From: a virus
Strand: one strand, 5' to 3'
Virus record (IMG/VR): IMGVR_UViG_3300007511_000019
Length of the DNA stretch: 64,000 nucleotides
Shown: in pieces, positions 5,460-49,878 of the stretch
How the letters are laid out: every line of letters begins with the position of its first letter
Numbering within the stretch: position 1 is the stretch's first letter
Position numbers and translations under genes: made by a program
The notes under the pieces: generated by a model
Database searches by the model: none
Told to the model about the DNA's origin: nothing
What the model saw: only the letters and a program-made list of their open reading frames with translations

Positions 5460-5467
5460 AGGACAAC

Positions 5468-10600: not shown

Positions 10601-10613
10601 GAGCAATTCACCC

Positions 10614-15214: not shown

Positions 15215-15664
15215 ATGAATCATCACGATGAACATCCAGAAGGGGCAGCCATGGACGGTAAAATCATTGAAGTCTTGGACCGGCTCGCTGATCGGCTACA
15301 CGATCAGGAACAACCGTCCGGCCTGTTGTCGATCGAAAAGATCGTCGCGGCGGTCATCATGTTACTTGTCACCGGTGTATGTCTTTGGGTTGGATCATCC
15401 TTGACCACGATGACTCAAAAGGTGATCGAGCTTCAGGCCAACGTTTCACACCAGAGCCAGACAGTCGCCGAACTCAAGGCGGAGGTTCGCGACTTACGTA
15501 CTGGGGCACTCAGTACCAGCACGAATAACACACAAAACATTCAACTCATTCTCGAGCGAATGAAAGCCGACGACGCCCGAGAGATTCGCGACGACGAAAC
15601 CATCGCAGAGATCCGTCGACAGATCCAGGCATTACAGGAACAAGTTAGAGGTAACAAACCGTGA
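15215..15664 (+). CDS. membrane protein with a coiled-coil region
   Basis: A central TM helix (VAAVIMLLVTGVCLWVGSSL) is flanked by charged helices. Confidence 0.4.
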   Translation: MNHHDEHPEGAAMDGKIIEVLDRLADRLHDQEQPSGLLSIEKIVAAVIMLLVTGVCLWVGSSLTTMTQKVIELQANVSHQSQTVAELKAEVRDLRTGALSTSTNNTQNIQLILERMKADDAREIRDDETIAEIRRQIQALQEQVRGNKP

Positions 15665-16176
15665 GCCTGTATCGTCCCAGTACAGTAACGACGCCAGGCC
15701 AGGCCCTCTACGAGCTGTCTCACGACTTCGTGAAGGTCTCCAGCAAACCATGGCTGTCGTATGGGCTGGCAGGCAAACTCTATATCTCCAACTCCGGCTG
15801 GGGCCTGCTTAGCGTCCCAAACGCCCTTGTTCACGGTGCTTTCGACGCCCTGGAAGAACCCGGCGTAGAGCTGCCGCGACAGGACAGCGGGACATTTAAT
15901 GCCCATATTTCTGTCTTTCGCAAGGACGAAATCGATAAAATCGGGGGATCTGGCAAAATCAGGGAACGCGGTCACACTTTTCGGTACACCCTCGGACCGG
16001 TAAAATGTGTGAAGCCCTATGGTTGGGACGAAATGTCCAAAGTGTGGATGATCGAGGTCCACTCACCCGAACTACAGAACCTGCGGAAAAGCTACGGGCT
16101 ATCTGCGTTGCCCAAGGACAATAGGTTCAAGTTCCATATCACCATAGGAGTCCGACGCAAGAACGCATTCAAGTAA
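15661..16176 (+). CDS. 2H phosphoesterase superfamily protein (LigT / cyclic phosphodiesterase-like)
   Basis: Two H-x-T/S-x motifs are present (AHISVF and FHITIG), spaced about 90 aa apart as in LigT/CPDase. The GTG start overlaps the upstream stop (GTGA). Confidence 0.55.
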   Translation: MSLYRPSTVTTPGQALYELSHDFVKVSSKPWLSYGLAGKLYISNSGWGLLSVPNALVHGAFDALEEPGVELPRQDSGTFNAHISVFRKDEIDKIGGSGKIRERGHTFRYTLGPVKCVKPYGWDEMSKVWMIEVHSPELQNLRKSYGLSALPKDNRFKFHITIGVRRKNAFK

Positions 16177-16198
16177 CGTCTACCCTAACGGAGTAGTA

Positions 16199-16651: not shown

Positions 16652-16659
16652 AGGACATA

Positions 16660-17016: not shown

Positions 17017-17019
17017 CCC

Positions 17020-18213: not shown

Positions 18214-18260
18214 GATGGTGATCTAAATAAGCCAGACCTTCGCGTCACAATAAATTGGTA

Positions 18261-18294
18261 AGGGCTTAGCTCGGATGCTAAGCCCTCTTTTATT
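18261..18294 (+). terminator. rho-independent terminator
   Basis: Perfect 10-bp stem (AGGGCTTAGC / GCTAAGCCCT) with a 6-nt loop, followed by CTTTTATT. Confidence 0.7.
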
Positions 18295-18302
18295 GCCGTC
18301 AG

Positions 18303-18638
18303 ATGATGGAGGCTTTCATGCAAAGCCAGCGAAGTGTCGAGGTCGGGCCAGACTACCTGGATGTGGACGTCCGACAACTTGTCTTACACTGGAATAGTCA
18401 CATCCATACGTTTGGGTTCGATGTGATATACGTCAACAGCAATGACAACATTTCAGTTAAGCAAGGCGGACTTTACCGCAACGAAATCCCGACACTCTGT
18501 GAACTGGGCAGACGGGTACTTGACTTCTTCCCGTATGGCTTCTTCCCCCCTGAGATTGCAAGCCAGCTCGCGGCCATACGTGCCGAATCTACGTCGCTTA
18601 ACAGACGATCGCGACCACTGGCCGCGTTCATGAGTTAG
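18303..18638 (+). CDS. hypothetical protein
   Basis: ORF of 111 aa that sits between two terminators. Confidence 0.3.
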   Translation: MMEAFMQSQRSVEVGPDYLDVDVRQLVLHWNSHIHTFGFDVIYVNSNDNISVKQGGLYRNEIPTLCELGRRVLDFFPYGFFPPEIASQLAAIRAESTSLNRRSRPLAAFMS

Positions 18639-18660
18639 GCTGCGAGAAGTCACACTAGTG

Positions 18661-18689
18661 GGTCCCGACGAAAGTCGGGGCCTTTTTTT
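18661..18689 (+). terminator. rho-independent terminator whose U-tract is part of the conserved TTTTTTTAGCTATCAG motif
   Basis: Stem CCCGAC / GTCGGG with a GAAA loop and a 7-T run. Confidence 0.65.
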
Positions 18690-18729: not shown

Positions 18730-20509
18730 ATGCCCAATATCTTGCTGCCTGAACTCAGCACTGACGCCGAAGAGATGTCTATGCTCGGATTCCCGATCGG
18801 GAATTTGGAGAAGGTATCATCACCCCTAACAGGGGGTTTGTGGCCAGAACTTCTTTCGTATCTTCCCGTTCGGGAAAATCGCCTCCATGGGGAAATTCAC
18901 GAAAAGAGGGGTGAAGACGCGAAAGGCATTCCAGACCGAAAGTACTATGGCGACCTATCTAGAGTTTCTCCGCAGTTACTGGACTTCGTTATCCAACGGC
19001 ATCTTGCCGAGAGAGCTGGCCCTCACTTTGATTTCCGATTCGGAGACCCCAAAGGGCTCTTCTCCTGGGCAACCAGAAAACCGATGCCCGGCATTGGCGG
19101 ACGAACCGCCCTATTCCAGCAGCCCATGCACTCCTACAAGTACAAAGATTGGGAGGGCACAATTCCTAGCGGACGCTATGGGGCTGGACGGGTTAAGAAA
19201 CAAGAGGATGGCAAACTTCTCATTACCAAAGCCAGTCCGGAATCTATCCACTTCACCATGGCCCACAAGAAGCACCCGCAACGCTTCGTGATGATCAAAC
19301 CGAAGGGCTGGAAAGATAAAGACTGGTTGCTTATCAACAAGACCCCGACTGAGCAATTGCCGTACGAGAAAGTACGGTACAAAAAGATTCCAGCGGAGCA
19401 GGTCGACAAGTACATCGGCCAAATGCAAAAAGGCGATACTCTGGAGGCAAAGGTTGACGGGGCCTCCTCGCTGATTAAACTAATGAAAGAGGGCGTCGAG
19501 GTGATGTCCTACCGTACGTCCAAGGAAACGGGCCGACCGATACTTCACACAGAAAGATTGCTTCATGGTCTCCCCGCTTACAACATCCCAGACGACCTGG
19601 TTGGCACGGTACTTAAAGGCGAACTCTACGGAGTGCGACCTGGAGGATCCGGAGATGGTGATGGCTCCGCTGACAAGGGAGACCCTCTACGCGGCCATGT
19701 TGCTGATGAACCTCAGCTGGCGGAAGGGAGCTTTGAACCTGACGGAGGGCGAGAAAGAGATACTCGAGTTTCAGAGAGAGCAGACCAGGAGGATGTTCCC
19801 GGAACTGTTAGGCCCCAAGACGACGGACTCGGAGAATATCTTCAAGAGGCTCTTTCCGCCGGTACCGGTAGACCAACTCAGCGAGAGCGAGTACTCCGCC
19901 CTCAAGAACTTGGAGGACTGCTCAACTCCTCCGTCGCCAAATCAATCCAAGACCAGCGAGAGCGACAAGTAAAACTCAGAAATGCCGTTTACGATATCCA
20001 ACAGCTAGGCAACAAACCAATCGACTGGCATGTGACTCCCCGGCTCGAGCGTAGGGATATGATTCGAAAAGTTCTTGAGCACCTACCGCCCGAGACGTTT
20101 CACATCTCAGAAGCCGCAGAGACGCCCGAAGCCGCCCAGAGACTCTGGCAACAAATACAGTCTGGTGAGCACCCGATTACTCGAGAGGGTGTAGTCATGC
20201 ATCCGCTACACGGTCCCCCCACGAAAGGAAAAATTTTAGAAGACGTAGACGTGTATTATCGCCAAGCATTTCCGGGCAAAGGTAAACACGAAGGATCGGG
20301 TGCTGGCGGCTTCGAATACTCACTCACACCTGACGGGCCTATAATTGGTAAGGTAGGAACAGGTTTCACGGACGAGTTACGCAGGTCCCTTTTCGAGAAC
20401 GATCAAGACTATGCCGGAAGGATTGCACGAATCCAATCGCAAGAACAGCTTCCTAGCGGAGCTTATCGAGCACCGAGCTTTCTGGCTTTTCACGAGGATC
20501 AACCTTATG
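18730..20509 (+). CDS. LigD-type 3'-phosphoesterase domain fused to an ATP-dependent polynucleotide ligase (no in-frame stop, so the 3' end is uncertain; the tracker ORF runs to 21927)
   Basis: PE domain: GPHFDFRFGDPKGLFSWATRKPMPG...DWEGTIPSGRYGAGRV matches the LigD phosphoesterase signature. Ligase motifs: I is KVDGAS, III is LKGELYG, IIIa is AVYDI, IV is EGVVMH, plus an OB fold (GKVGTGFTDE...RAPSFLAFHED). A low-complexity insert of about 110 aa lies between motifs III and IIIa. Confidence 0.6.
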
Positions 20510-21046
20510 CAACAACGAAACAGTCTAGGCAGGTTTCTGCAAGGACACAAATCCAGAACGACTCACGGACAAAGTGGAACGAAAACATACAAGGTGTGGG
20601 CGGGGATGAAACGCCGCTGCCTGGACCCAAAACGGCACAATTACAAACACTACGGAGGACGAGGCATAAAGATATGTGCAAGGTGGCGGGACTCCTTCGA
20701 GAACTTTCTGGAAGACATGGGAACGTGCCCAGACGGTTATTCGCTGGAGAGGGAGAACAACGACAAAGACTACTGTCCCACGAATTGCACTTGGATACCT
20801 CTCGAGAAACAGGCAGCAAACACTCGGAGCAACGTGTGCTTGACTTTTCGCGGCGAAACCAAGCATCTGACACAATGGGCGAGAGAGTCGGGAATCAGGC
20901 AGCAGACATTGACCAGGCGTCTTCAGCGAGGTTGGTCCGTGCAGCGTGCACTAACCGAGAAGCCAGTAGTAGGCAAAAATCAATTCTCGTCCAGCCAGAC
21001 CTCGGACTCACGTCTGAAAAACTCGCTGAACTCGGGATCGGAATAG
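20507..21046 (+). mobile_element. free-standing HNH/AP2-like homing-endonuclease gene with a C-terminal helix-turn-helix (+1 frame relative to the ligase ORF)
   Basis: YKVWAGMKRRCLDPKRHNYKHYGGRGIKICARWRDSFENFLEDMG...GYSLERENNDKDYCPTNCTWIPLEKQAAN is typical of phage HNH homing endonucleases, and LTQWARESGIRQQTLTRRLQRGWSVQRAL is an HTH tail. The ATG at 20507 coincides with the expected C-terminus of the ligase OB domain. Confidence 0.6.
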
Positions 21047-21049
21047 ATC

Positions 21050-21927
21050 CCGACGAGCACACAGCCCTGGAAAAAGAAGCCTCACTTGCTAGACTTCTGA
21101 CACTACCTGGCGTCAAGCACCTACTTCGCTGGCAGTCAAAGCTTGGTCGGAAGGCTAACGACTACTTGTGGAACAAACTGCTAACCGCAAATCGCCGAAC
21201 CGCGTTGGGCACCGCAGGCGTCGTAGGCGGTGCCGGTTACGGCGGCTACCGGATGGGCCAAGGCGACTGGCAAACTCCAGGCGACATTCTACACGACCCG
21301 ATCATCCAAAAGCCGCTGGAATGGTCTACAGTTATCCCGGAGAAATATAACATCCCATTGTGGACAGCAGCAGGTATTGCTGGTGGCCGTAGTGTGGGCC
21401 GTCACGCGGCCCAAGCCGCCGTAGGCAGTGCCAACGCGTTGCGGCGGCTAGTTACGATGCAGCCCTTATCGCAAGCGTTGTCTGGTCAAATCGGTAGTAC
21501 CCTTGGTGTTGCTGGGCCTATCTTAGGCGGTGCCAAAGGCGGCGTCGGAACCTACTACACTCACCGGGCAGTAGAGAAAGCCAGGGAAGCTGCTGAGCAG
21601 CCAACAGTACCTGAAGTCAAGCACAGCACAGATTCGCACTACCTGCGAGCCTTCTCCCAAGTAAACCCTGCACACCTTTACCGAGGCGACCAGTCTGCTC
21701 TGCGTAACGCTAGCAACTACATCAACGCCTTGTTAATACAGGGTCGGCAAAACGTCGCCAAAGCCTATAATACTGATAGCCTCAACCTGGCCTTGGCTCC
21801 GATGGGGCAACGTTGGCAACGAGCCTTGGCCAGTCTTGAGGGTTACGATCCCATCATGTCCAATCCCCTTGATCGGGTGTTGCACATGATGCCAGCAACC
21901 CCGCAGCTGAGTCGTCCGTACGTATGA
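21050..21927 (+). CDS. Gly/Ala-rich putative membrane/virion protein encoded by the 3' part of the 18730-21927 ORF (start undefined)
   Basis: Segments such as TAGVVGGAGYGG, AAGIAGGRSVG and GVAGPILGGAKGG resemble the downstream gene 21953-22792. There is no ATG near the 5' end, so an alternative start or continuation of an upstream exon is possible. Confidence 0.3.
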
Positions 21928-25116: not shown

Positions 25117-25894
25117 CCAACCTACCTTCTACGACGCTGTACAACACGTCACTGCTAAGGCTTTGCAACGTAAAGCTCTAGCTGGAGCAGGTACAGCGGC
25201 ACTAGCTGGTCTCGGTACTGGTGCAGGTCTACGAGGTATCCTCGGCCTGTTGGAAATGAGCAGGCAAGGTGCCCAGCCGCCCCAGGCTCAAGCCCCTACC
25301 GGTCAGATCGAGGTCCCGGTGGACGACGAGAAGATCGCTGCCTTGGCGGATTTCCTCAAAGGCGACTATGCCAAATCGACTTCTGGTGTGCCTTGGGCCA
25401 TTCCTGCCGCTGTTGGTGCCGGTGCTGCCGGAGCGTACGGTGGTTGGAAAGGTATCGACGCACTGCTCGAGCAAAGACGAAAAGGCGAACTAGAGGCTGA
25501 GCTTGAAAAAGCCAAGATGGACTACGAAGCTGCCTTGTCTGGCGACACCAAGTTAGCGGAAGACCTGGACGAACTCTACGACACAGTAGAGAAACAAGCT
25601 GTCTCCGCGTCAGACGCAGCAGGAACGGCTACAGGACTCTACGGAGTCTACGGCGGTACTTCAGCTTTGTTGGCCGCCATTATGGCTTACCAATACGGTA
25701 AGAAGCGACAACGCCGGTCCTTGCTTGAAGCGGCACAAGAGAAACGCCGCCGACAACGCTTTGCACGACAACCTGTGCCGATCCAAGTACGGCCAGTGCC
25801 TAAGCAGCATGAGCAGGACCCGCTGCAGGCAAGTAAGTCCCCGTTCCAGGCCGCACCTAGCTTGGACGAACAAGAAGATCAACTGGATAAGTAA
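25058..25894 (+). CDS. hypothetical Ala/Gly-rich membrane-associated protein with a charged C-terminus (start uncertain; the tracker start is 24986)
   Basis: An RBS (AAGGAA) precedes the ATG at 25058. It is TAATG-coupled to the RNAP gene at 25894. Confidence 0.35.
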   Translation: MTNLALVLKASRQSSEKSANQPTFYDAVQHVTAKALQRKALAGAGTAALAGLGTGAGLRGILGLLEMSRQGAQPPQAQAPTGQIEVPVDDEKIAALADFLKGDYAKSTSGVPWAIPAAVGAGAAGAYGGWKGIDALLEQRRKGELEAELEKAKMDYEAALSGDTKLAEDLDELYDTVEKQAVSASDAAGTATGLYGVYGGTSALLAAIMAYQYGKKRQRRSLLEAAQEKRRRQRFARQPVPIQVRPVPKQHEQDPLQASKSPFQAAPSLDEQEDQLDK

Positions 25895-28800
25895 TGCCAA
25901 ACATTCTGTCACCGCCCTCCGGCGTGCTAAGCGGGACCAAACCTGCTCTGCCGCAACCGGTACGTCCTCTGCAAAAAGAGGAACCGGAAAAGCGAGAGTT
26001 CGGTGACGCTTTGGCCACGCGGCGGCTTATCTACAACAACGTGCTGGCGTCGACTCAAACACTTGAGCCGATCTCTAACCAACGCCACACGCTACAACTG
26101 CGTGATGTTAAATACGCTGACGATCCCAAGTTCTCGTACAAGCAGCAAAAGGAAGCCATCCTCGGCGGTAAGAGTCTCAACCGTCGACTGCAAGGCACCT
26201 GGGAGCTGTCGGATAACGAAACTGGCGAAGTGCTTGACAGCAGGCCCGGCGTAGTTGCTCGTGTACCGCACCTGACGGATCGCGGTACGTTTATCCACAA
26301 CGGTAACGAGTACACCCTGTCCAACCAGATGCGGTTGCGGCCAGGCGTGTTTACCCGTGTCAAAGACAATGGAGAAATTGAAGCCCACGCAAACCTATTG
26401 CCGGGTAAAGGCGTCAGCCACCGGTACTTCCTAGACCCCGAGAAGGGTATTTTCCACATGCGGATGGGGCAGGCGAAAATACCGCTGATGCCTCTTCTCA
26501 AGTCGCTCGGAGCAACAGACAAACAATTGCAGGAAGCATGGGGCAACGAACTGTGGCAAGCTAACGCTCAAAAGGACAACCCAGGAACCCTATCGAAGCT
26601 GTACCAAAAACTGGTACGTAAGATTGACCCTGATGCCGACGAGCCAGCTAAACGCCTAGCCGTTGCCGAAGTCATGGAGAAAATGGAACTGGACCCCGAG
26701 GTTACACAACGAACCTTAGGTAACAGTTTCAACAGGATGGGGTTGGATGCGATTCTAGCCACCACCAATAAATTGCTCGCAGTATCCCGTGGAGAACAGG
26801 AGGTCGATGACCGTGATCATCTCGCTTATCAAAATGTCCTGGGCCCAGAAGATTTGTTCGCGGAACGTATCGCAAAGGATTATGGCGGACTCCGCCGACA
26901 ACTTTTGCATAGATCTAGCTTTAAGGGAGACTTGTCAGCCGCACAGTCCGGTATGCTAAGTCGCCAGTTAGAAGCCGCGTTACTCCATTCTGGATTAGGG
27001 CAAAGCCTTGAAGAAATCAACCCAGCAGACATCTTCGACAAACAATCAAGAATCTCACGTCTCGGTGAGGGCGGCATCCCGTCCATCGACGCCGTGCCAG
27101 ACGAAGCTAGGGCGGTTCAGCCGAGCCACTTGGCTTTCATGGACCCAGTACGCACGCCGGAATCATTTAAGGTCGGTGTGGATGTGCATATTGCCAACAC
27201 GGCTCGTAAAGGATCTGATGGCCGAATTTACTCACCGTTCGTTGATCCTCGTAGCGGAAAAGAGGTGTGGAAGTCGCCCCAGGACCTTGCAGATCTCACA
27301 GTCGCTTTTCCCGGCGAAATGCGTAGGGAAACTAAGCGGGTTGGTGCCATGCAAGGCGGCAAACTCAAGTTTGTCCCAAAACAGTCTGTGGACCTGGTTG
27401 TGCCCACTTTCGAAAACGCTTTCTCGCCGCTAGGTAACATGGTTCCCATGAAGTCAGCGGTCAAGGCCCAGCGTATGGCTATGGCTAGCCGTATGCTCAC
27501 ACAGGCCTTGCCGCTCGAGAACGCAGAGAGTCCGCTTGTACAGACCGGCATCTCTGGCGAAGAGGATACAAGTTACGAGCAGCGATATGGTCGTAAGATG
27601 GGTGCCGTCTTCGCCGACAAGCCAGGACGAGTAGTTTCAATAAGCGACCAAGGGATTAAGGTCAAGTACGACGACGGAACTACAGAAGAGAAGCAGCTCT
27701 ATAACAACTTCCCGTACAACCGCAAAAGCGTAACCGGTGACACTCGTATTGTGATCCGACGCAAGAATGGCGAACTGTGGACTGGATCAATCGATAAGTA
27801 CCACTGGGAAGATAGCGACCAAGTGCAGTCGGTGGACCCAGACTCCAAGCAGTCTGCCTGGAAACGCGTCACAGGTTACATTACGCACTGCAACGACAAA
27901 CAGCTGTTGCGGATAACTACTAAATCCGGGAGATCGGTCGTGGTCACGGAAGACCACAGCCTTATTACGCTGGACAAACACGGAGAACTGGTACCGGTCT
28001 ACCCTAAAGACTGCGAGATCGGGCTAACCCGCCTGCCTGTAGCCATGTTGCAGGGTCATCGATCTCGGCGACATGGCCAGGAGATTAGCAAAGACCCGAG
28101 CGGCATTCTGTGGGGGCTGTACGTAGCCGAGGGGCACTGTCCGCCTACCCAACCAGGGCTAGTTAACATTGCAGTAGAGCCAGACGACCGTGCAGAACAG
28201 GTGTTGGAAGTGGCTCGTCAGTGCGGTTATGAGGCGTACCGCAATGGCGGTAACGTATGCTTTACTGACCACGCCTTCGCCGCCAAGGCGACTGAGCACT
28301 TTGGCCACCTGTCGCACAACAAGCGAATTCCCGCCTGGGTGCTTGGTACTCCCGTCTGGTTTCGGGAAAGTTTTGTTCAAGGCTATATGGCTGGCGACGG
28401 GTGCTTGTGGGAGGACTCAAACGGGTCGCTACAGCTGCAGGCCGTTACGGTTTCTAGAGAGCTTCGCGACGGATTTGTCGAGTTGCTGTTAAGCCTAGGC
28501 ATTATGACGACGCTTTTCGATGCACCTAGAAAGCACCTCAACGACAACTGGCGTGACGCGTACGGTTGCCGCATAATCAGTAGCCACGTAGGGCGACTTC
28601 GTAAGTGGTTCTACTACGCAGACCGTGAGCGACAACTCCACGAGCTGCTAAAGCCTACGTATCGAGCCGCAAGCTTTGACCTGGTCCCGGTAGCCGCCGA
28701 GGCCCGTAAACTTCTGTACAAGGGTTATATCGGGACGGTTCCTAGCTATGTCTATAAGACCGCCAACCAGGGAGCAGTTGCTAAGCACCGGTTGAAAGAA

Positions 28801-31551
28801 AATACAGGCGTGTTCGGCGACTGGGCACGCTCTGATGTACTGTGGGACCCTATCGAAGAAATTATCCCTGTTGCTTACGAGGAACGAGTATATGACCTTT
28901 GCGTCCAGCACTCCGAGGCATTTTGCGTCAACGGCGGACTGCTCGTGCACAACACCTACATTCACAATACTCCGACAGTCAAGCCAGGTGACACCTTTGG
29001 TGTGGGGCAGGCCTTGGCTAAATCCAACTTTACCGATGCTGGTGGCACTACCGCTCTCGGTAAGAACGCTCGCGTTGCGTACATCCCATTCCGAGGGCAG
29101 AACTTCGAGGACGCTCTTGTGATCTCCGAGTCTTTCGCCAAGCGAATGAGTTCGGAGCACATGTATCAACACGGCGTGGACTTCGCAGACGACAAGAAAA
29201 CCAAACGACGCGACTATGTCTCACTCTTCCCATCCAAGTATGACAAACAAACTTTAGAGAGCATCGACGAAGACGGCGTCATCAAGCAGGGCACTATCGT
29301 CAGTCACGGCGACCCCCTTATTCTGTCGGCACGGCAGAAGGACGTTGCTCAGCATAAAGTCCATCGTCGCAAGGCTCCTGGCTTTACCGACCAATCCGAG
29401 ATCTGGAAGCACCATGCCCCTGGCGTGGTTACTGATGTATTCAAGGGCAAGAAGGGCACCACGGTCCTAGTCAAATCGCTCTCAGCTATGCAAAAGGGCG
29501 ACAAGCTATCAGGCCGCTACGGTGACAAAGGTGTTATCTCGGCGATCGTGCCGGATAACGAGATGCCCCACTCAAAGGACGGACAGGCTTTCGAAGTTTT
29601 GCTTAACCCTCTTGGTATTATCTCCCGTACAAACCCGGCCCAAATGGTTGAGGCCGCACTGGGAAAGATTGCTGCCAAGACAGGGAAACCTTACAAGGTG
29701 GTTGATTTTGAAGACATACAAGATTTGACGGACTTTGCGATCCAGGAACTCAAGAAGAACCAAATGGAGGACCTGGAGGACATAACCGACCCGTCGAACG
29801 AGAGAAAGATTCCCGGCGTCTTCACCGGCAACCGCTTCTTCATGAAACTCCACCATACGGCGGAGGGAAAGGGGCAGGGTCGTGGTACAGGAGGTTATAC
29901 GATGGAAGGTACTCCCGCGAAAGGCGGTGAGACCGGTTCCAAGCGAATTTCACTTCTCGATAACAACGCACTCCTCTCGCACGGTGCCACTGAGGTTCTT
30001 CGAGACGCAGGAGCAATTCGAGGACAACGTAATGAGGAGTTCTGGCTCCCATTCATGCGTGGTGTTACTCCCCCAAAGCCCAAGGTACCCATTGTCTATC
30101 AAAAGTTCGTGAACGAGCTTAAGGCATCAGGTATTAACGTGGTGGAGGACGGAACACAAACACACATTATGGCCCTCACCGACAAAGACGTCGGTGAGCT
30201 GGCTGGACAGAGATACCTCAAGAGCGGCGACACGGTTCAATTTGAAAAAGGATTGAAACCGATCACCGGCGGTCTGTTCGACCCCGCACTAACCGGCGGA
30301 CACAACGGCAATCGCTGGTCGGCAATCAAACTCGCAGAACCTATGCCGAACCCGGTAATGGAAGAACCCATTCGCCGCGTCTTGGGACTTACACAAAAGC
30401 GATTCGAGGCCGTCCTATCCGGGCAGGAAGAGTTGCAAGGACACCGTGGTCCTGCAGCCTTTACCAAGGCCCTAGGTAAGATGGACCTGGATAAAGAGAT
30501 TGCTTACGCACAAGCGGAATTCAAATCCGGACGTAAGGCCTCTCGAGATATGGCCATACGTAAACTGGGTTACCTCAAGTCCGCCAAGAAACTAGGCATA
30601 CACCCTAAAGACTGGATGCTGACCAAGGCTCCTGTATTGCCCCCGATGTTTCGTCCGGTGTCGGTGATGTCCGACAACCGCCTTCCTTTGGTATCGGATG
30701 CTAATTTCCTTTACAAGGAATTACTGGAAGCTAACGACAACCTAACAGAGATGTCAAAAGAGGTGGACGATGTCGCCGACGAACGTCTTGCGGTCTACAA
30801 CGCTTTCAAAGCAGTCACAGGACTTGGAGATCCAATACACCCAAAACTGCAGGAGAAACGCGTCAAGGGGATTCTTAAGCACGTATTTGGTTCTAGCCCT
30901 AAGCTGGGTGCTGTGCAGCGTAGGCTTGTATCCAGTACTGTGGATCTTGTTGGCCGTGCAGTTATTACTCCTAACCCTGACCTGGACATGGACCATGTTG
31001 GGCTTCCAGAGAATAGAGCCTGGGACATCTACAAGAACTTCATCGTACGAAGACTCAAGCGGCGGGGTATGCCGCTGGTCGAAGCGGCCAAGCAGGTCGA
31101 GAACCGTTCAGAAGTAGCTAAACAAGAGTTGGTCAAAGAGATGGGCGAACGGCCCGTGGTGATCAACCGAGCCCCGGTTTTGCACCGTTTCGGCATCATG
31201 GCTTTCTACCCCAGACTTACCAAGAGCGACACTCTGGAGGTCTCCCCGTTGATCGTGAAAGGCTTCGGAGCTGACTTCGATGGGGATGCTATGCAATACC
31301 ACGTACCGGTCTCCGACGAGGCCAAAGACGAGGCCGTGGACCGTATGTTGCCAAGTCGCAACCTCTTAAGCCCGGCTGACTTCAAGTCGCCTATCCACGT
31401 ACCGAGTCAAGAATACACCGGTGGATTGTACGCTGCGTCGTCCACCAAATCTAAGCGGCGGGTGCGTACCTTCCGCAATACCAAGGATATGCTCGCAGCC
31501 TATCGGCGTGGTGAGCTAGACATCAACGATGAAGTGGAGGTGATGGAGTAG
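25894..31551 (+). CDS. rpoB: phage multisubunit RNA polymerase: beta subunit fused to the N-terminal (rpoC1/gamma-like) part of beta', interrupted by an intein
   Basis: Beta blocks include LTDRGTFIHNGNEY...RPGVFT, GKNARVAYIPFRGQNFEDALVISE, GDKLSGRYGDKGVIS...LLNPLGIISRTNP and GNRFFMKLHHTAEGKGQGRGTGGYT. Beta' blocks follow in the same ORF: PITGGLFDP, VLPPMFRPV, NRAPVLHRFGIMAFYP and GADFDGDAMQYHVP. The ORF ends about 90 aa after the DFDGD motif. Confidence 0.85.
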   Translation: MPNILSPPSGVLSGTKPALPQPVRPLQKEEPEKREFGDALATRRLIYNNVLASTQTLEPISNQRHTLQLRDVKYADDPKFSYKQQKEAILGGKSLNRRLQGTWELSDNETGEVLDSRPGVVARVPHLTDRGTFIHNGNEYTLSNQMRLRPGVFTRVKDNGEIEAHANLLPGKGVSHRYFLDPEKGIFHMRMGQAKIPLMPLLKSLGATDKQLQEAWGNELWQANAQKDNPGTLSKLYQKLVRKIDPDADEPAKRLAVAEVMEKMELDPEVTQRTLGNSFNRMGLDAILATTNKLLAVSRGEQEVDDRDHLAYQNVLGPEDLFAERIAKDYGGLRRQLLHRSSFKGDLSAAQSGMLSRQLEAALLHSGLGQSLEEINPADIFDKQSRISRLGEGGIPSIDAVPDEARAVQPSHLAFMDPVRTPESFKVGVDVHIANTARKGSDGRIYSPFVDPRSGKEVWKSPQDLADLTVAFPGEMRRETKRVGAMQGGKLKFVPKQSVDLVVPTFENAFSPLGNMVPMKSAVKAQRMAMASRMLTQALPLENAESPLVQTGISGEEDTSYEQRYGRKMGAVFADKPGRVVSISDQGIKVKYDDGTTEEKQLYNNFPYNRKSVTGDTRIVIRRKNGELWTGSIDKYHWEDSDQVQSVDPDSKQSAWKRVTGYITHCNDKQLLRITTKSGRSVVVTEDHSLITLDKHGELVPVYPKDCEIGLTRLPVAMLQGHRSRRHGQEISKDPSGILWGLYVAEGHCPPTQPGLVNIAVEPDDRAEQVLEVARQCGYEAYRNGGNVCFTDHAFAAKATEHFGHLSHNKRIPAWVLGTPVWFRESFVQGYMAGDGCLWEDSNGSLQLQAVTVSRELRDGFVELLLSLGIMTTLFDAPRKHLNDNWRDAYGCRIISSHVGRLRKWFYYADRERQLHELLKPTYRAASFDLVPVAAEARKLLYKGYIGTVPSYVYKTANQGAVAKHRLKENTGVFGDWARSDVLWDPIEEIIPVAYEERVYDLCVQHSEAFCVNGGLLVHNTYIHNTPTVKPGDTFGVGQALAKSNFTDAGGTTALGKNARVAYIPFRGQNFEDALVISESFAKRMSSEHMYQHGVDFADDKKTKRRDYVSLFPSKYDKQTLESIDEDGVIKQGTIVSHGDPLILSARQKDVAQHKVHRRKAPGFTDQSEIWKHHAPGVVTDVFKGKKGTTVLVKSLSAMQKGDKLSGRYGDKGVISAIVPDNEMPHSKDGQAFEVLLNPLGIISRTNPAQMVEAALGKIAAKTGKPYKVVDFEDIQDLTDFAIQELKKNQMEDLEDITDPSNERKIPGVFTGNRFFMKLHHTAEGKGQGRGTGGYTMEGTPAKGGETGSKRISLLDNNALLSHGATEVLRDAGAIRGQRNEEFWLPFMRGVTPPKPKVPIVYQKFVNELKASGINVVEDGTQTHIMALTDKDVGELAGQRYLKSGDTVQFEKGLKPITGGLFDPALTGGHNGNRWSAIKLAEPMPNPVMEEPIRRVLGLTQKRFEAVLSGQEELQGHRGPAAFTKALGKMDLDKEIAYAQAEFKSGRKASRDMAIRKLGYLKSAKKLGIHPKDWMLTKAPVLPPMFRPVSVMSDNRLPLVSDANFLYKELLEANDNLTEMSKEVDDVADERLAVYNAFKAVTGLGDPIHPKLQEKRVKGILKHVFGSSPKLGAVQRRLVSSTVDLVGRAVITPNPDLDMDHVGLPENRAWDIYKNFIVRRLKRRGMPLVEAAKQVENRSEVAKQELVKEMGERPVVINRAPVLHRFGIMAFYPRLTKSDTLEVSPLIVKGFGADFDGDAMQYHVPVSDEAKDEAVDRMLPSRNLLSPADFKSPIHVPSQEYTGGLYAASSTKSKRRVRTFRNTKDMLAAYRRGELDINDEVEVME
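27727..28953 (+). mobile_element. intein (409 aa) with a LAGLIDADG homing-endonuclease domain in RNAP beta
   Basis: The flanks (...YNRK and TYIHNTPTV) match the beta region ...YTRSNQN / TCINQMPCV. Hint block A is SVTGDTRIV (Ser1). The C-terminus is ...LLVHN with Thr at +1. LAGLIDADG-like motifs are ILWGLYVAEGH and FVQGYMAGDGCL. Confidence 0.7.
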
Positions 31552-32792: not shown

Positions 32793-33045
32793 GCAATTGC
32801 GGGCTCGAATGGCCCGACCAGCTACCCCCACACTCAAAGTTCTGTCTGTCTGGGTACAGCACGGAGTAGAACAGCAGTTACTGCCCATAGCATCTGGCGA
32901 TGACGACGCCCAGCTGCGTGGACTGCTTGCAAATTGGGAGCAGCAACTGGACTACGGGGAAATGGTCGCTTCAAACATGCGGTATCTAGGGCGGCACCGG
33001 ATTGTAACAGTTCCTTTCATCGGACGGCAAAATGGCAAAGCGTAA
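32761..33045 (+). CDS. hypothetical protein
   Basis: The 94-aa ORF overlaps both neighbouring genes. Confidence 0.25.
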   Translation: MALQGGFGVPEQLRARMARPATPTLKVLSVWVQHGVEQQLLPIASGDDDAQLRGLLANWEQQLDYGEMVASNMRYLGRHRIVTVPFIGRQNGKA

Positions 33046-36000
33046 GGCTACTGCTGGCCAGATCCTCATCAACGAAGTGTTGCCTGAAGACATGCGGGAC
33101 TACAACCGCACGCTCGACAAGAAGGGTCTGTCCAAACTGCTTACCGAGGTAGCCCAGAAGCACCCGGACGACTATCGAGATATCTCCCACCGACTGGGCA
33201 AGATCGGACGCGAAGCCGCCTTTACATCAGGCGGCAATTCTTTTGGCCTAGCCCACATGAAGCGTGCTTTGGTCGCCCGCAAAATGCAGTCTGGCCTGAA
33301 AACCCGTATCAACGCATTGCTGGACAACGACAGCCTTGACGATGACGCAAGAGACGCAGCCATTATCAAACTGGTTGGTAAGGCCATGCCGCAGCTGCAG
33401 GACGCCATTCTTGAAGAGAGCGACGCCGAAGGTAACCCGCTCGCCCAACAACTCAAAGGTGCCGGTCGCGGTAACAAGATGAACCTCTCTTCGTTACGAG
33501 GTAGCGACGGGCTGTATCAAGATCACCGTGACAACATCATCCCGATTCCTGTACTCAAGAGTTACTCAGAAGGGCTCTCGCCGCTAGAGTATTGGGGCGG
33601 GACTTACGGTGCCCGGCAAGGTGTTATGGCGGTTAAGTTCGCTACACAGGACGCTGGCTTTCTATGCCTTGCGGAAGGCACGGAAGTGCGGATGGCTGAC
33701 TGGAGCACCAAGCCTATCGAAGAGATCCAAGTAGGTGACACGGTACTGGGAGCTAACAAGTACGGAACGACCTTTCCCGTCAAAGTGACCGCCACTTTTG
33801 ACAACGGTGTGCGGCAGCTAACAAAGTTCCGCTTCCGGTACGGCAAGGCCCGCAACCGTTTTATTGAGGTGACAGCCACCGACAAACACAAAGCCCTGGC
33901 CGAGCATCTTCGTCGCCGACGCAAACGCCCTGATCCTAGGTTACATATTGAGATCAGCCAAGACGTTATGCCAATGGGTACGTTCGAACGACGGACAGTT
34001 TCGCGGCACGCTCTAGTCCCACCTCAAGGCTACTCCTGCCCGCAAACCGGTCCGAGAGACGAGTACTGCTGGCTGCTAGGCCTCCTGACTGCCGAAGGCG
34101 GTTTAACTACGAATCACGTAGGACTGTCTTGTGGAGATCCGGAGCTGCTAAAAGAGGCTCGACGGTTGACAAAGCCAATGGGTTTCGAGATACGCCAAAA
34201 GAAAAATGCCCAGTACGAATACAGCTTTTATGACACCCAGCCCTTGCCCGCAAAAGGTAAGCCTGGCGGAGGCATTGCCACCGGTTCTTTCCGAAACCGG
34301 CTCAAGGCCAAGCTGGCTGAACACGGGCTGCTAGGTAAACTGGCCCAGGACAAGGAATTGCCCGAACAAATTTGGGCGTGGCCCAACTCACATGTCTGCG
34401 GTTTTCTTCGTTGGCTCTTCGCCGGTGACGGGGGTGTCAGTCCGTCGAACAACGCTACGCTGCCTGTAGTCACGTTGGGCATGACAGCGGAGCCGGTTGT
34501 GCGGGGCGTCGAACGCTTGTTGGCCGATCGTTTTGGCATCTACGGTCAGATTAGTATGGACAAGGCGGAGAACTGCCCTAAAGCCAACCATGACTGCCAT
34601 GTTCTTGCCATTTCCGATCCCCAGTCGGTGGAACGCTTCGCACAACACATAGGTTTTGTTGCTGGTAGTAAGCAGGCCCGTCTAATGACGCTGCTGGCCG
34701 AGGCCGACCCTTGCGAGAGGCACAGCCGCTTTCTCTTCCATTACCTCGACTCCGAGGACGTTGGCGAAGGTCCTACTTACGATATCGAGGTCGACAACGA
34801 GGACCACCTATTTGTACTGGCCAACGGGGCAATTGTCTCCAATTCCAAACAACTCAATCAAATCGCACACCGCTCAGTCGTGATCGACGAAGACAGCGAT
34901 GGCGAGCCCGACACCCTCATTGGTCTGCCTGTCGATACTGACGACATGGACAGCGAGGGTTCGTTGTTGGCGGCTCCTGCGGGCAAGTATAAACGAAACA
35001 CAGTGCTCACTCCTAAGATCATCCGCGAATTGAAGCAAGCGGGAATCAAACGGCTCTTGGTGCGAAGCCCAGCAATCGGTGGTACGCCAGACGGCGGTGT
35101 GTACGGCAGGGACGTCGGTATTAGAGAATTCGGTCGACTTCCTACACGAGGCGAAAATGTTGGACTCACAGCTGCTCAAGCCCTATCTGAACCGCTGTCT
35201 CAGGCTCAACTCTCGGCGAAGCATACAGGCGGGGTGGCTGGCGAATCCCAAGCAGTCTCTGGATTTGATTACATCAACCAACTCGTACAAGTTCCCAAAA
35301 CCTTCAAAGGCGGAGCAGCCCATTCAACGCTTGACGGTATCGTACAAGCTGTCGAGCCCGCTCCTGCCGGTGGTACCTATGTCTCCATCAACGGAGAACG
35401 ACATTACATCGCAGGAGGGTTCGAGCCAAAGGTTAAGAAAGGCGATCACGTCGAAGCTGGAGACGTTATTTCTGACGGCACTCCGAACCCTTCGTTGATT
35501 ACCAAACACAAAGGCGTGGGCGAAGGCCGACGTTACTACATCAAGTCGTTTGCTGACGCCATGAGTTCTGCTGGCATCAAATCCCACCGCCGCAACGTCG
35601 AACTACTAGCGAGAGGGCTTATCAACCACGTTCGCCTTACAGACGAGATCGGGGACTTTGCACCTGACGACGTGGTGCCCTACTCCATGATGGCCGCTCG
35701 GTACATTCCCCGAGAAGGGTTCAAAACAATGGATCCCAATCGTGCAACAGGTAAGTATCTTGAGAGGCCCTACCTGCACTATTCGATCGGCACCAAGATC
35801 CGCCCATCGATGATGAAAGACTTCAAAGACTTTGGCGTGAAAAGCGTTGATGTACATGACGACGAACCGCCTTTTGAACCAGAAATGATCCGAGGCATGG
35901 CTAACCTGCAACACGACCCAGACTGGATGACCCGTATGTTCGGTTCTGGTCTGAAAGGTAGCCTGCTTCGCGGTGTACATCGAGGCGGCACTTCGTCGGA

Positions 36001-36094
36001 GACCGGAACCAGCTTTGTGGCCGGTCGGGCGAAGGCCGTTGACTTTGGTCGTACAGGTATTATCCAAACTCCGAAGGAGCCTCCCAAACCATGA
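33032..36094 (+). CDS. rpoC: RNA polymerase beta' C-terminal (rpoC2-like) subunit, interrupted by an intein
   Basis: [12 protein letters not shown]...KKGLSKLL matches beta' at AILNEILP...KKAISKML. Further matches are [25 protein letters not shown] to [41 protein letters not shown] to TRRLVDVAQDLVVTEDD, and [23 protein letters not shown] to [23 protein letters not shown]. Confidence 0.85.
   Translation: [1020 protein letters not shown]
33665..34843 (+). mobile_element. intein (393 aa) with a LAGLIDADG endonuclease domain in RNAP beta'
   Basis: It begins [10 protein letters not shown] (Cys1, Hint block A) directly after the GFL of the GYL|TRRL-equivalent site, and ends ...NGAIVSN with Ser at +1. 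LAGLIDADG-like motifs are [14 protein letters not shown] and [12 protein letters not shown]. There is no penultimate His. Confidence 0.65.
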
Positions 36095-48867: not shown

Positions 48868-48878
48868 TCGTTAACCAT

Positions 48879-48914
48879 GTGGGTGCTCTCGCCGCAGAGG
48901 GTCACCCACTTTTT
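48879..48914 (+). terminator. hairpin plus T5 run immediately upstream of the major capsid gene RBS
   Basis: Stem GTGGGTG(CTCT) / (AGAG)GGTCACCCAC, followed by TTTTT. Confidence 0.5.
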
Positions 48915-48933
48915 CAAAACAGGGAGGTGCAGT

Positions 48934-49878
48934 ATGGCTACTGCGACTCTTTCGCAGGAAGACTCAAAACTCCTGAACGAAGTCGTGTTCGAGAAACTTT
49001 CGAGCCGCGACCCGATCATGGAAAAAGAAGCCATTGATGCGGTCAATGACTTTACCCGCCTGAAAATGCGGGAAGACGGGTTTTACCGGCGAATCATGCC
49101 GCCTCTGCCCATCACCAACGATGAGCTGGATCGGCAAGTCAATACGGACAAACCCGTTAAGGTGGTTGACAAGGAACCCGATAGTCCTGCGGCTATCTCG
49201 ATCCCATTCGCCACCCTGCCCATGAACCTCTATATTCGTGGTCAACGATACCTGGTCATGCTTGACCGTATCGTGACTCCGCGTTTCACAAAAGACGCGG
49301 ACGAACTACGAACTTGGATCATGGACATTCGCCAAGTCCTGTCGGACAACGCCATCAAAGATATGTTGGCGGAAGAAGACGGCAAATTCATCACGGCTGT
49401 GGATACAGCCCTGGTTGGTGCAGGCGTCACCCTCCCGACCTCGAACACGGTCCAATTCGAGCAGATTGCCGGTGGTATCACTCGTGATACATTGTGGGAT
49501 TCGTTCAAGACGATGCCCAACACGCCGTTCAACCTCGAAGTCCACACGGTGTTGGTCAACAACATCACCATCAAAGAAGTTGCGAAATTCGGTCGTAACG
49601 AAATGGGCGGTGACTTGTCGGTCGATATCATGCGGAATGGTTGGTCCGAGCAAGAGTTCATGGGCGTTCGATGGATCGTCACGATCAAGAAGGATCTTGT
49701 CGCCACGAACCACATGTATCATTTCTCTGACCCGAAATTCATCGGCAAGCACTACCAGCTGGAAGACACCACGATGTACATTCGTCGTGAAGCTTACATG
49801 CTCGAGTTCTTCGCCTACGAAACCTCGGGCGGTACGCTGGGTCACACCGGCGGACTGGCTCACATCCAATTCACGTAA
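48934..49878 (+). CDS. major capsid protein (HK97-fold-like)
   Basis: The start is taken at ATG 48934 with RBS AGGGAGG. The protein is 314 aa. It lies after the scaffold-like gene and is followed by a strong terminator. Its composition and length are typical of an MCP. Confidence 0.55.
   Translation: MATATLSQEDSKLLNEVVFEKLSSRDPIMEKEAIDAVNDFTRLKMREDGFYRRIMPPLPITNDELDRQVNTDKPVKVVDKEPDSPAAISIPFATLPMNLYIRGQRYLVMLDRIVTPRFTKDADELRTWIMDIRQVLSDNAIKDMLAEEDGKFITAVDTALVGAGVTLPTSNTVQFEQIAGGITRDTLWDSFKTMPNTPFNLEVHTVLVNNITIKEVAKFGRNEMGGDLSVDIMRNGWSEQEFMGVRWIVTIKKDLVATNHMYHFSDPKFIGKHYQLEDTTMYIRREAYMLEFFAYETSGGTLGHTGGLAHIQFT

What the first reader, a model, noticed from the sequence alone, without database searches (positions are those of the whole stretch)
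18730..18750. Shared N-terminal heptapeptide MPNIL(L/S)P on the ligase fusion and the RNAP beta-beta' fusion
Both large enzymes begin MPNILxP (nucleotides 18730-18750 and 25894-25914). The DNA differs at synonymous positions (ccc/cca, aat/aac, atc/att, ttg/ctg), which suggests selection on the peptide rather than a recent duplication. It could be an N-terminal targeting or processing signal, for example a capsid-targeting sequence cleaved by a prohead protease. That would imply a virion-packaged RNAP and repair enzyme.
Basis: seen in the sequence. Interest (0 to 1): 0.5.

Follow-up and report, generated by a model that had tools for sequence, protein, structure and literature searches.

The report
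Shared N-terminal tag on phage enzymes
Two unrelated giant enzymes of an uncultured marine phage, its RNA polymerase and a DNA-repair ligase, begin with the same short peptide on a floppy leader. Related phages keep a looser form of it, so it looks like a shared address label, most plausibly for loading the enzymes into the virus particle, though this is untested.

Summary
ORF 18730-21927 (LigD-phosphoesterase + ATP-ligase) starts MPNILLP. ORF 25894-31551 (RNAP beta + intein + beta' N-half) starts MPNILSP. All five shared non-Met codons differ synonymously and the flanking DNA is unrelated.

Chance alone is unlikely (P about 0.02 within the window). The strict heptapeptide is not what is conserved. 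The conserved core is a small or polar residue followed by [I/V]-L near the N-terminus, usually then P, D or E.
- It is 6-fold enriched in 123 non-redundant beta leaders, often in two copies.
- It heads many homologues of the ligase protein, whatever domain follows.
- In both window proteins it sits on a predicted flexible leader.
- In ten genomes the two N-termini resemble each other more within than between genomes (P = 0.001, or 0.06 without the two pairs noticed first).

The ligase protein belongs to the "polyvalent / Swiss-army-knife" class, which is predicted to be injected. In the distant cultured relative Arash, RNAP beta is the most detected virion protein. The RNAP genes lie directly upstream of the head genes.

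Best reading (about 0.4): a virion-loading docking tag, analogous to the T4 capsid-targeting sequence. Cleavage by a prohead protease is unsupported. Packaging is inferred, not shown.

The parts
18730..18750 (+). N-terminal tag MPNILLP of the ligase (SAK / polyvalent) protein
   Evidence: Homologues start MAGILLPE, MTNILAAE, MTGILAAE, MSILLPDD, MSVLVPEH, MSDILLPE.
18730..18924 (+). Predicted flexible leader of the ligase protein (aa 1-65): tag, then a short helix at aa 13-18 (DAEEMS), then a disordered linker
   Evidence: AlphaFold2 with a 25-sequence alignment. pLDDT is below 50 for aa 1-10 and 25-63. The phosphoesterase domain at aa 70-210 has pLDDT above 90.
18730..21927 (+). Polyvalent repair protein: leader + LigD 3'-phosphoesterase + ATP-dependent ligase + about 450 aa of unassigned C-terminus
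   Evidence: Pfam and PHROGs. Homologues share only the phosphoesterase module and carry varied other domains.
25894..25914 (+). N-terminal tag MPNILSP of the RNAP beta-beta' fusion
   Evidence: The beta proteins of L125 start MPNILSA and of L124 MTTPNILSPS.
25918..25935 (+). Second, weaker motif copy SGVLSG (aa 9-14) in the beta leader
   Evidence: Read from the sequence. Second copies are common in relatives, for example NSILSP, PSILSP, PSLLKP and SPVLAG. At least 2 copies occur in 26 of 123 leaders against 0.9 expected.
25894..25992 (+). Pro-rich leader of beta (aa 1-33), preceding the conserved R-E-F-G-D start of the folded polymerase
   Evidence: In alignment A1 the first invariant or nearly invariant residues are R34 and D38. 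The leaders of 130 relatives are 22% Pro and vary in length from 8 to 78 aa.
25894..31551 (+). RNAP beta + intein + beta' N-terminal half. The fusion is the norm in this clade.
   Evidence: Pfam. Most IMG/VR homologues are 1460-1490 aa.
33032..36094 (+). RNAP beta' C-terminal half with a LAGLIDADG intein. It has no tag.
   Evidence: Pfam. N-terminus MAKRKATAGQ.
15661..16176 (+). Stand-alone 2H-SAK phosphoesterase with a weak tag-like start (GTG) MSLYRPS. Possible third bearer.
   Evidence: PF22547, E = 9e-13. Family members start MSLVLLPT, MSLIQPIG, MSLIHPKC, MSLLFPDT.
18660..18683 (+). Strong terminator-like hairpin just upstream of the ligase gene, with a second at 18261-18286. The ligase gene opens a transcription unit that runs into the RNAP genes.
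   Evidence: No comparably strong + strand terminator follows before the RNAP genes.
48877..49878 (+). Major capsid protein (context): the head/tail module follows the RNAP genes on the same strand
   Evidence: tblastn with Arash gp226 (MCP): 29% identity, E = 4e-29. Arash gp218, gp222, gp233, gp234 and gp236 also match, in the same order.

Best explanation
The heptapeptide is this phage's version of a short N-terminal docking motif. The motif is M, then 1-2 small residues (longer prefixes occur in some relatives), then [I/V]-L, usually followed by P, D or E. It sits on a flexible leader.

The same motif heads the RNAP beta-beta' fusion and the polyvalent ('Swiss-army-knife') repair proteins of a clade of large, uncultured marine phages. 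I propose that one phage-encoded receptor in the assembling head (scaffold, portal or capsid interior) binds this tag. The polymerase, probably as a pre-assembled complex, and the repair enzyme would then be loaded into the virion and delivered with the DNA.

Shown here:
- the motif exists;
- it is conserved;
- it lies on disordered leaders;
- it stays at the N-terminus while the downstream domains change;
- it tends to change in step in the two proteins of one genome.

Inferred:
- that it binds a receptor;
- that the receptor is in the prohead;
- that the proteins are packaged.

Removal by a protease is not required by this model, and nothing here supports it.
For: 1. Conservation in beta. 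In 123 non-redundant leaders the core [SNDTGA][ILV][LMI][PGSDE] occurs 96 times against 16.7 +/- 3.9 in composition-preserving shuffles. At least two copies occur in 26 leaders against 0.9 expected. Pro is residue 2 in 45% of leaders against 9% of other proteins. Otherwise the leaders vary widely in length and sequence.
2. Conservation in the ligase family. The motif lies in the first 12 aa of 34 of 139 proteins, against 10.4 +/- 3.9 for internal 12-aa windows. It stays N-terminal whether the next domain is phosphoesterase, 2H, helicase or UDG. The phosphoesterase module starts anywhere from about aa 20 to beyond aa 500.
3. Flexible leaders. AF2 gives pLDDT below 50 for aa 1-10 and 25-63 of the ligase protein. 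The beta leader is Pro-rich.
4. Change in step. In ten genomes the pairs include MPNIL/MPNIL, MSIL/MSIL, MSVL/MSVL, MSVL/MSIL, MEDSPTSIL/MDDSPYNLM and MTNIL/MTTPNIL. Identities at positions 2-6 average 2.1 within genomes and 0.87 between them, permutation P = 0.0014. The motif register agrees in 8 of 10 genomes.
5. Virion link. In Arash the beta protein Gp206 is the most detected protein of purified particles (128 unique peptides). Beta', sigma and the adjacent helicase are also abundant (PMC10585845). Arash and D69 share the fused beta-beta' architecture and the gene order, and their beta proteins start MPKSASELTPIF and MPKKASDLIPIF.
6. Polyvalent link. The ligase family has the domain repertoire of polyvalent proteins (2H-SAK, InPase, SNF2, NUDIX, GNAT, papain-like peptidases). 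Such proteins are predicted to be packaged and injected (PMC5512222).
7. Genomic position. The ligase and RNAP genes form one apparent transcription unit directly upstream of the head genes.
8. Precedent. T4 CTS peptides of 10-20 aa are shared by unrelated internal head proteins, and SPN3US gp53 and gp54 have identical N-termini (PMC5694885).
Against: - There are no virion data for this phage or any close relative. Arash is only about 30% identical, and its authors warn that abundant enzymes may be carry-over.
- The conserved core is only 3-5 residues. A loose M-x(1,2)-[ILV]-[LM] start occurs in 15% of proteins in these loci.
- Without the two pairs that were noticed first, the within-genome test gives only P = 0.05-0.06. 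For the 2H-type proteins upstream of beta in 24 other genomes it is also P = 0.06.
- A subgroup of beta proteins has MPxPELPPLK instead of the motif.
- No receptor, scaffold or prohead protease could be identified. Pfam and PHROGs find nothing in the 37-54 kb region.
- No convincing tag was found on other abundant Arash virion proteins.
Confidence: 0.4

Rival explanations
1. The tag is a docking motif for a hub inside the infected cell, not in the virion. Candidates are a sliding clamp, an SSB-like protein, a genome-end-binding protein or a host factor. Such a hub would bring the phage polymerase and the repair enzyme to the same DNA.
For: - The tag is a short motif on a flexible leader, which suits any protein-protein docking.
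- Ligases commonly carry terminal clamp-binding peptides, and the T4 clamp binds transcription factors through terminal peptides (my own knowledge, not tested here).
- Change in step within genomes fits any shared partner.
Against: - The motif does not fit the bacterial clamp consensus (QL[SD]LF or QLxLxL) or the PIP box (QxxLxxFF). It has only two adjacent aliphatic residues and no aromatic pair (sequences).
- Tagged family members include domains with no obvious business on DNA, such as GNAT, papain-like peptidase and kinase.
- No clamp gene was seen in the roughly 84 kb examined, though this is not the whole genome.
- This model does not explain why the genes sit with the head module, or why RNAP is so abundant in Arash virions.
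Confidence: 0.2
2. There is no shared function. Each family has its own N-terminal peculiarity, for example an interaction specific to RNAP in beta and a small structural element in the repair proteins. The identical MPNIL in this phage is then coincidence on top of two similar, low-complexity preferences.
For: - The within-window chance estimate is only about 0.02.
- The loose pattern is common, in 15% of N-termini.
- The co-variation is borderline once ascertained pairs are removed (P = 0.06).
- The ligase family has an extended module (PE.GCD..EL..LG) that beta lacks.
- The small protein family at 23489 also starts MTHILGG, where the motif may simply be a beta strand.
Against: - Three different registers (I/V-L at residues 3-4, 4-5 or 8-9) change concordantly in both proteins.
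- The L009/L084 pair shares a quite different decapeptide, MDDSPYNLMP / MEDSPTSILS.
- PNILS persists in beta proteins only 56-71% identical while the rest of the leader diverges.
- In both window proteins the motif lies on a leader that is predicted disordered or is Pro-rich, not in a fold.
Confidence: 0.2
3. The similarity reflects constraints on the start of translation or on N-terminal processing. Examples are A/T-rich, unstructured early codons, or a small second residue that allows methionine removal. It would then not be a binding motif.
For: - Residue 2 is P, S, T, A or G in nearly all cases.
- Codons 2-5 are 58% A+T in both genes, in a 46% A+T genome.
Against: - There is no nucleotide conservation and synonymous sites vary freely.
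- The motif recurs as second and third copies 5-25 residues downstream, where initiation effects do not reach.
- The enrichment is specific to two gene families, not to highly expressed genes such as the capsid protein.
Confidence: 0.06

Closest known systems
T4 capsid-targeting sequences (CTS) of the internal proteins IPI-III and Alt
   Same: Both are short peptides at the extreme N-terminus, shared by otherwise unrelated proteins of one phage. Both have a hydrophobic pair that is often followed by an acidic residue. Both are proposed to direct enzymes into the head for co-injection (PMC5694885).
   Different: There is no sequence similarity to MKTYQEFIAE (recalled from memory). No T4-type protease or scaffold was identified here. 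Cleavage is not indicated for the window's beta. The cargo here is a multisubunit RNAP and a polyvalent repair enzyme rather than small internal proteins. Packaging is unproven.
Virion RNAPs and ejection proteins of phiKZ-like giant phages (SPN3US, 201phi2-1)
   Same: A multisubunit RNAP is carried in the head. SPN3US gp53 and gp54 keep identical N-termini despite 34% overall identity, and the authors read this as CTS-like. The vRNAP seems to be incorporated as a pre-assembled complex, which would explain why only one subunit needs a tag.
   Different: Those RNAPs are highly diverged and split into five subunits. This one is bacterial-like, a fused beta-beta'N plus beta'C, and relatives also encode sigma factors. 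Their propeptides are mostly longer than 100 aa and are cleaved at A/S-x-E.
Encapsulin cargo-loading peptides
   Same: A short conserved terminal motif on a flexible Pro/Ala-rich linker, sometimes repeated, docks cargo enzymes to the inside of a shell protein. For encapsulins that shell protein has the HK97 fold (my own knowledge).
   Different: Encapsulin peptides are usually C-terminal and have an alternating pattern (LxIGSL-like), not an adjacent I-L pair. The fold of the capsid protein here was not determined. Only homology to the annotated Arash MCP is shown.
Polyvalent proteins of phages and conjugative elements (Iyer, Burroughs, Anand, de Souza, Aravind 2017); Pfam '2H-SAK'
   Same: The ligase protein and its homologues combine 2H, InPase, LigD-phosphoesterase, ligase, SNF2 helicase, NUDIX, GNAT and peptidase domains in shuffled orders. 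That class is predicted to be injected with the DNA.
   Different: The passages read do not describe a common N-terminal tag, nor one shared with an RNAP. The paper was not searched for this specifically. The usual MuF or portal fusions that signal packaging are not seen here.

Membership tests
T4-type capsid-targeting sequence | Short N-terminal peptide shared by unrelated proteins of the same phage | tested here: met
   MPNILLP and MPNILSP sit on two unrelated proteins. Analogous pairs occur in nine other genomes.
T4-type capsid-targeting sequence | Bearer proteins are located inside the mature head | not testable with these tools
   The evidence is only indirect. RNAP beta and beta' are abundant in Arash virion preparations (PMC10585845).
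T4-type capsid-targeting sequence | Peptide removed by the prohead protease at a consensus site ([L/I]-x-E in T4, recalled from memory; A/S-x-E in phiKZ-like phages) | tested here: inconclusive
   The ligase family often has [PA]-E at residues 7-8 (LPE, APE, AAE). The window's beta has none (NILSPPSG). No protease gene was recognised.
T4-type capsid-targeting sequence | Sequence similarity to the known CTS (MKTYQEFIAE-like) | tested here: not met
   By inspection of the sequences there is no resemblance beyond a hydrophobic pair plus an acidic residue.
T4-type capsid-targeting sequence | Sufficient to package a foreign protein | not testable with these tools
   This needs an experiment.
Bacterial sliding-clamp-binding motif / PIP box | Consensus QL[SD]LF or QLxLxL, or QxxLxxFF | tested here: not met
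   The tags have two adjacent aliphatic residues, no Q anchor and no aromatic pair.
Encapsulin cargo-loading peptide | Terminal short motif on a flexible linker | tested here: met
   AF2 predicts disorder for the ligase leader. The beta leaders are Pro-rich and of variable length.
Encapsulin cargo-loading peptide | Motif of the LxIGSL / GSL type that binds an HK97-fold shell | tested here: not met
   The motif pattern differs (an adjacent I-L pair). Shell binding was not tested.
Sec / lipoprotein signal peptide | Basic n-region, hydrophobic h-region of at least 7 residues, cleavage site | tested here: not met
   MPNILLPELSTDAEE and MPNILSPPSGVLSG are acidic or Pro-rich and have no h-region.
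Polyvalent / SAK proteins (for the ligase ORF) | Several disparate enzymatic domains in one chain, shuffled among homologues, drawn from the repertoire 2H, InPase, NUDIX, GNAT, SNF2, peptidases | tested here: met
   The ORF has LigD_N and a ligase. Its homologues carry PF22547, PF18823, PF00176/PF00271, PF00293, PF00583, PF03412 and PF03167 in many combinations.
Multisubunit RNAP beta-beta' fusion (for the second ORF) | Rpb2 domains followed by Rpb1 N-terminal domains in one ORF | tested here: met
   Rpb2_6 (E = 1.5e-49) and Rpb1_2 (E = 5.6e-23) lie in one ORF. The fusion is the norm in 80 IMG/VR loci.

The most novel reading that the evidence does not exclude
A clade of large uncultured phages uses a tiny, co-evolving N-terminal 'zip code' on a flexible leader: M, 1-2 small residues, I/V-L, then P/D/E, often repeated. 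The zip code would load a bacterial-type RNA polymerase and modular polyvalent repair enzymes into the capsid for co-injection. This would be a cargo-loading system like the T4 CTS or encapsulin peptides, but with a new motif, new cargo and an unidentified receptor. It would be portable enough that domain-shuffled proteins keep it at their N-terminus.
Probability: 0.33. Interest if true: 0.7.

Novelty: new variant of a known kind. Interest (0 to 1): 0.5.

Why it matters
If the tag is a virion-loading signal, it would show how a phage lineage with a bacterial-like RNA polymerase gets that enzyme, and a changing toolkit of repair and counter-defence enzymes, into the host at the moment of infection. 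It would also give a very short, transferable packaging tag. It would allow prediction, from sequence alone, of which proteins of uncultured phages are injected. Finally, it offers a testable case of two unrelated proteins co-evolving with a common receptor. If it is instead an intracellular docking motif, it still marks a physical link between phage transcription and nucleic-acid repair.

Tried and rejected
- **Single-protein scan of IMG/VR** with beta found nothing. An alignment was needed.
- **Strict regex** for the tag across 81 loci returned mostly internal, spurious starts.
- **Gibbs sampling** on whole leaders locked onto the PxxMRE anchor at the start of the folded domain instead of the tag. 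I switched to counting a defined core against shuffles.
- **Arash as a test bed.** I looked for tag-like N-termini among its virion proteins. Only vague resemblances turned up (gp13 MADIFS, gp14 MSNFISG, gp223 MSVLSLDSLID), with no usable enrichment. Its proteome of 116 proteins is too inclusive to separate cargo from carry-over.
- **Pfam and PHROGs** on 30 ORFs of the structural region and flanks gave almost nothing. No protease, scaffold, portal or clamp could be named.
- **PDB sequence searches** with the gene just upstream of beta (24986-25894) and with the small protein 23489 found nothing.
- **Other tag-like starts in the window.** 56286 (MTVILTP), 58597 (MSLLLLF) and 63072 (MATYVLPQ) are tail or baseplate proteins homologous to Arash gp233, gp234 and gp236 and have no Pro-rich leader. 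I treat them as chance matches.
- **Extending the genome** by 10 kb on each side added no further bearer.
- **Literature searches** for 'Swiss army knife' RNA-repair proteins and for RNAP packaging signals returned nothing specific.
- **Rejected on sequence grounds:** clamp-binding motif, PIP box, signal peptide, and the Fpg-type catalytic N-terminal proline.
Full report
**1. What is there**

The window is part of a large uncultured marine phage. Identical genes lie on JGI and ENA marine metagenome contigs of up to 88 kb.

- ORF 18730-21927 (+) encodes 1065 aa and starts MPNILLPELS.
- ORF 25894-31551 (+) encodes 1885 aa and starts MPNILSPPSG.
- The first protein has a LigD 3'-phosphoesterase domain (aa 89-190) and an ATP-dependent ligase (aa about 241-613).
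- The second is RNAP beta, interrupted by an intein (aa 640-1020) and fused to the N-terminal half of beta'.
- The C-terminal half of beta', with its own intein, is at 33032-36094.

Both start codons are secure.
- The ligase ATG is the first possible start after an in-frame stop and has a GGAGGAG Shine-Dalgarno sequence upstream.
- One database gene call for this protein begins at residue 119 (P0117). That start would cut the phosphoesterase domain in half.
- The RNAP ATG overlaps the stop of the upstream gene. Relatives repeat this arrangement.

**2. Is it more than chance?**

- At the DNA level the two starts share 13 of 21 bases. Every shared non-Met codon differs at a synonymous position, and the flanks are 22-26% identical. 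This is not a DNA repeat or a recent conversion.
- 'PNIL' occurs twice in all six frames of the window, both times at these starts.
- A simulation with position-specific N-terminal composition gives about 0.02 for any such pair among the 70 window proteins. That is suggestive but not decisive on its own.

**3. Conservation in the RNAP family**

Beta homologues were collected from the protein database (116 proteins) and from 80 IMG/VR loci on contigs of up to 235 kb. The beta-beta'N fusion is the norm in these.

The leaders:
- Before the conserved R-E-F-G-D start of the folded enzyme they carry a leader of 8-78 residues that is 22% proline.
- The leaders are otherwise very variable, but they keep a small motif. 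Examples are MPDSLIPD, MPSVLD, MPSILP, MAGVLPD, MAGILDD, MPDSILSG, SNSILG, LNILPQ and MSGILGPTNSILSP.

Enrichment:
- In 123 non-redundant leaders the core [SNDTGA][ILV][LMI][PGSDE] occurs 96 times, against 16.7 +/- 3.9 in shuffles.
- 69 leaders have at least one copy (15.8 expected) and 26 have two or more (0.9 expected).
- Residue 2 is Pro in 45% of leaders, against 9% of other proteins.

Spread and exceptions:
- PNILS itself recurs in the beta proteins of L124 (MTTPNILSPS, 71% identical) and L125 (MPNILSA, 56% identical).
- The cultured, very distant relatives Arash and D69 (about 30% identity) start MPKSASELTPIF and MPKKASDLIPIF.
- One subgroup has MPxPELPPLK instead.

**4. Conservation in the ligase family**

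Homologues of the ligase protein share only the phosphoesterase module. The rest is a shuffled set of ligase, SNF2 helicase, NUDIX, GNAT, papain-like peptidases, UDG, kinase, InPase and 2H-SAK domains. This is the architecture of 'polyvalent proteins' (PMC5512222).

- Many start like the window protein: MAGILLPELGCDAEEL, MTNILAAEIGCD, MTGILAAELGCD, MSILLPDDE, MSVLVPEHGCD, MSDILLPETGC, MATVLRPDYGCD. The 2H-first versions start MSLLFPD, MSLLLPQ, MDSLSALDP and MDGFSILDP.
- The motif lies in the first 12 residues of 34 of 139 non-redundant members, against 10.4 +/- 3.9 for internal windows.
- It stays at the N-terminus even where the phosphoesterase module begins at residue 210, 325 or beyond 500.
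- AlphaFold2 on residues 1-260 with a 25-sequence alignment puts residues 1-10 and 25-63 below pLDDT 50. A short helix lies at 13-18, and the phosphoesterase domain (70-210) is above 90.

In both window proteins, therefore, the tag sits on a flexible leader and not in a fold.

**5. Do the two tags change together?**

Gene order is conserved: repair protein, a few small genes, a protein of about 300 aa, then beta. I could therefore read both N-termini from the same contig in nine further genomes.

| Genome | Repair protein | RNAP beta |
|---|---|---|
| window | MPNILLPE | MPNILSPP |
| L124 | MTNILAAE | MTTPNILSPS |
| L125 | MTGILAAE | MPNILSAN |
| L123 | MATVLRPD | MSRILSSSPSILSP |
| L126 | MSILLPDD | MSILDQPP |
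| L129 | MSVLVPEH | MSILPADT |
| L130 | MSVLKPEM | MSVLDTNP |
| L131 | MSVLEPIP | MGVLDTNP |
| L009/L084 | MEDSPTSILS | MDDSPYNLMP |
| L132 | MSLLFPDT | MAGILGKY |

- Identities at positions 2-6 average 2.1 within genomes and 0.87 between genomes (permutation P = 0.0014).
- A set reduced for close relatives gives exact P = 0.007.
- The position of the first I/V-L agrees in 8 of 10 genomes, across three registers.
- Caveat: two pairs were noticed before being tested. Without them P = 0.05-0.06.
- For the 2H-type proteins upstream of beta in 24 other genomes the same test gives P = 0.06.

I call this suggestive of concerted change, not proven.

**6. Context**

- Two strong terminator hairpins (18261-18286 and 18660-18683) precede the ligase gene. 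No comparable terminator follows before the RNAP genes.
- Downstream, on the same strand, the order of homologues matches Arash: gp218 (38235), gp222 (44659), the major capsid protein gp226 (48877-49878; 29% identity, E = 4e-29), gp233, gp234 and gp236.
- In Arash, LC-MS of purified particles detected RNAP beta (Gp206) more than any other protein (128 unique peptides, 3516 spectra). Beta', a sigma factor and the neighbouring helicase were also abundant. The authors note that carry-over cannot be excluded (PMC10585845).

**7. Interpretation**

The best-supported reading is a docking tag that a common receptor recognises during head assembly, so that RNAP and polyvalent enzymes are packaged and injected.

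Known precedents:
- T4 capsid-targeting sequences.
- The identical N-termini of SPN3US gp53 and gp54.
- Incorporation of a pre-assembled vRNAP in SPN3US (PMC5694885). This would explain why beta' C-half needs no tag.

The design is a short motif, a flexible Pro-rich linker and frequent duplication. It also recalls encapsulin cargo-loading peptides (my own knowledge).

What is missing:
- any direct evidence of packaging;
- the receptor;
- any sign of cleavage.

Rival readings are a non-virion hub, unrelated family-specific N-termini plus coincidence, and translation or processing constraints. They are weighed in the rivals section. The clamp, PIP and signal-peptide patterns are not met.

**8. 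Verdict**

The protease-cleavage part does not. I rate this a good lead, a new variant of a known kind, at moderate interest, because the mechanism rests on analogy and on one distant relative's proteome.

Noticed in passing
window 12052-12453 (+): This ORF encodes a ribosomal protein S12/S23 homologue (PF00164, E = 2.9e-23; starts [14 protein letters not shown]). The gene is syntenic in related phage contigs L124 (1146-1532) and L127 (3964-4356), so it is a conserved phage gene and not contamination.
   Followed up: partly
window about 27811-28953 and about 33665-35000 (+): Both RNAP genes carry inteins with LAGLIDADG homing-endonuclease domains. In beta the intein is at aa 640-1020. In beta' C-half it starts at aa 212. 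Relatives vary in intein content, and some of their repair proteins also have inteins.
   Followed up: no
window 7632-8078 (+): This 148-aa ORF starts MTSTILPLPPLLPNF, a tag-like motif on a Pro-rich stretch. It is a real gene, called on 7 contigs. Only three close homologues exist (MTVALLPLPPPLP, MVKALLPLPPQLP), so conservation is uninformative. Its function is unknown.
   Followed up: partly
window 23489-23953 (+): A small conserved protein (domain RFWAERGLIxxED) lies between the repair protein and beta. It starts MTHILGG. Relatives start MTHLLGQ, MTTLLGQ and MHILGQ, usually in the same register as the tags of that genome. This could be a fourth bearer or simply a beta strand.
   Followed up: partly
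window 485-6292 and 13286-14953 (+): A cluster of sugar and nucleotide modification genes. It includes an NAD-epimerase/dehydratase, a DegT-type aminotransferase, two methyltransferases, a nucleoside 2-deoxyribosyltransferase, a Clp_N + cytidylyltransferase fusion, a GT2 glycosyltransferase and an RmlD-like reductase. It may serve DNA or virion glycosylation.
   Followed up: no
window 15661-18638 (+): Modules that are fused in the polyvalent proteins of relatives are separate genes here. A 2H-SAK (15661-16176) and a GNAT (16199-16651) are followed by three unknown ORFs, just upstream of the ligase protein. The same order (RmlD, 2H-SAK, GNAT..., repair protein) holds in L126, L130 and L131.
   Followed up: partly
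window 10479-11960 (+): An SPFH/Band-7 domain protein (PF01145, E = 1e-8) is encoded by the phage.
   Followed up: no
window 60376-61476 (+): A GDSL-type lipase/acylhydrolase lies within the tail/baseplate gene block. It may be a virion-associated esterase that acts on host surface polysaccharide.
   Followed up: no
L128 2673-3197 and 7239-7841; L081 and L082: Relatives encode sigma-70-family factors, and Arash carries one in its virion proteome. L128 also encodes NAMPT, a phosphoribosyltransferase and a T4-type RNA ligase next to the repair protein.
   Followed up: no
L082 9926-11665 and L081 10006-11787: In Arash and D69 the portal gene lies directly upstream of beta, separated by one small ORF. 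These portals start MSMFGLNP and MSFIGLDP, which loosely resembles the MDGFSILDP starts of the 2H-type polyvalent proteins. No portal was recognised in the window.
   Followed up: no
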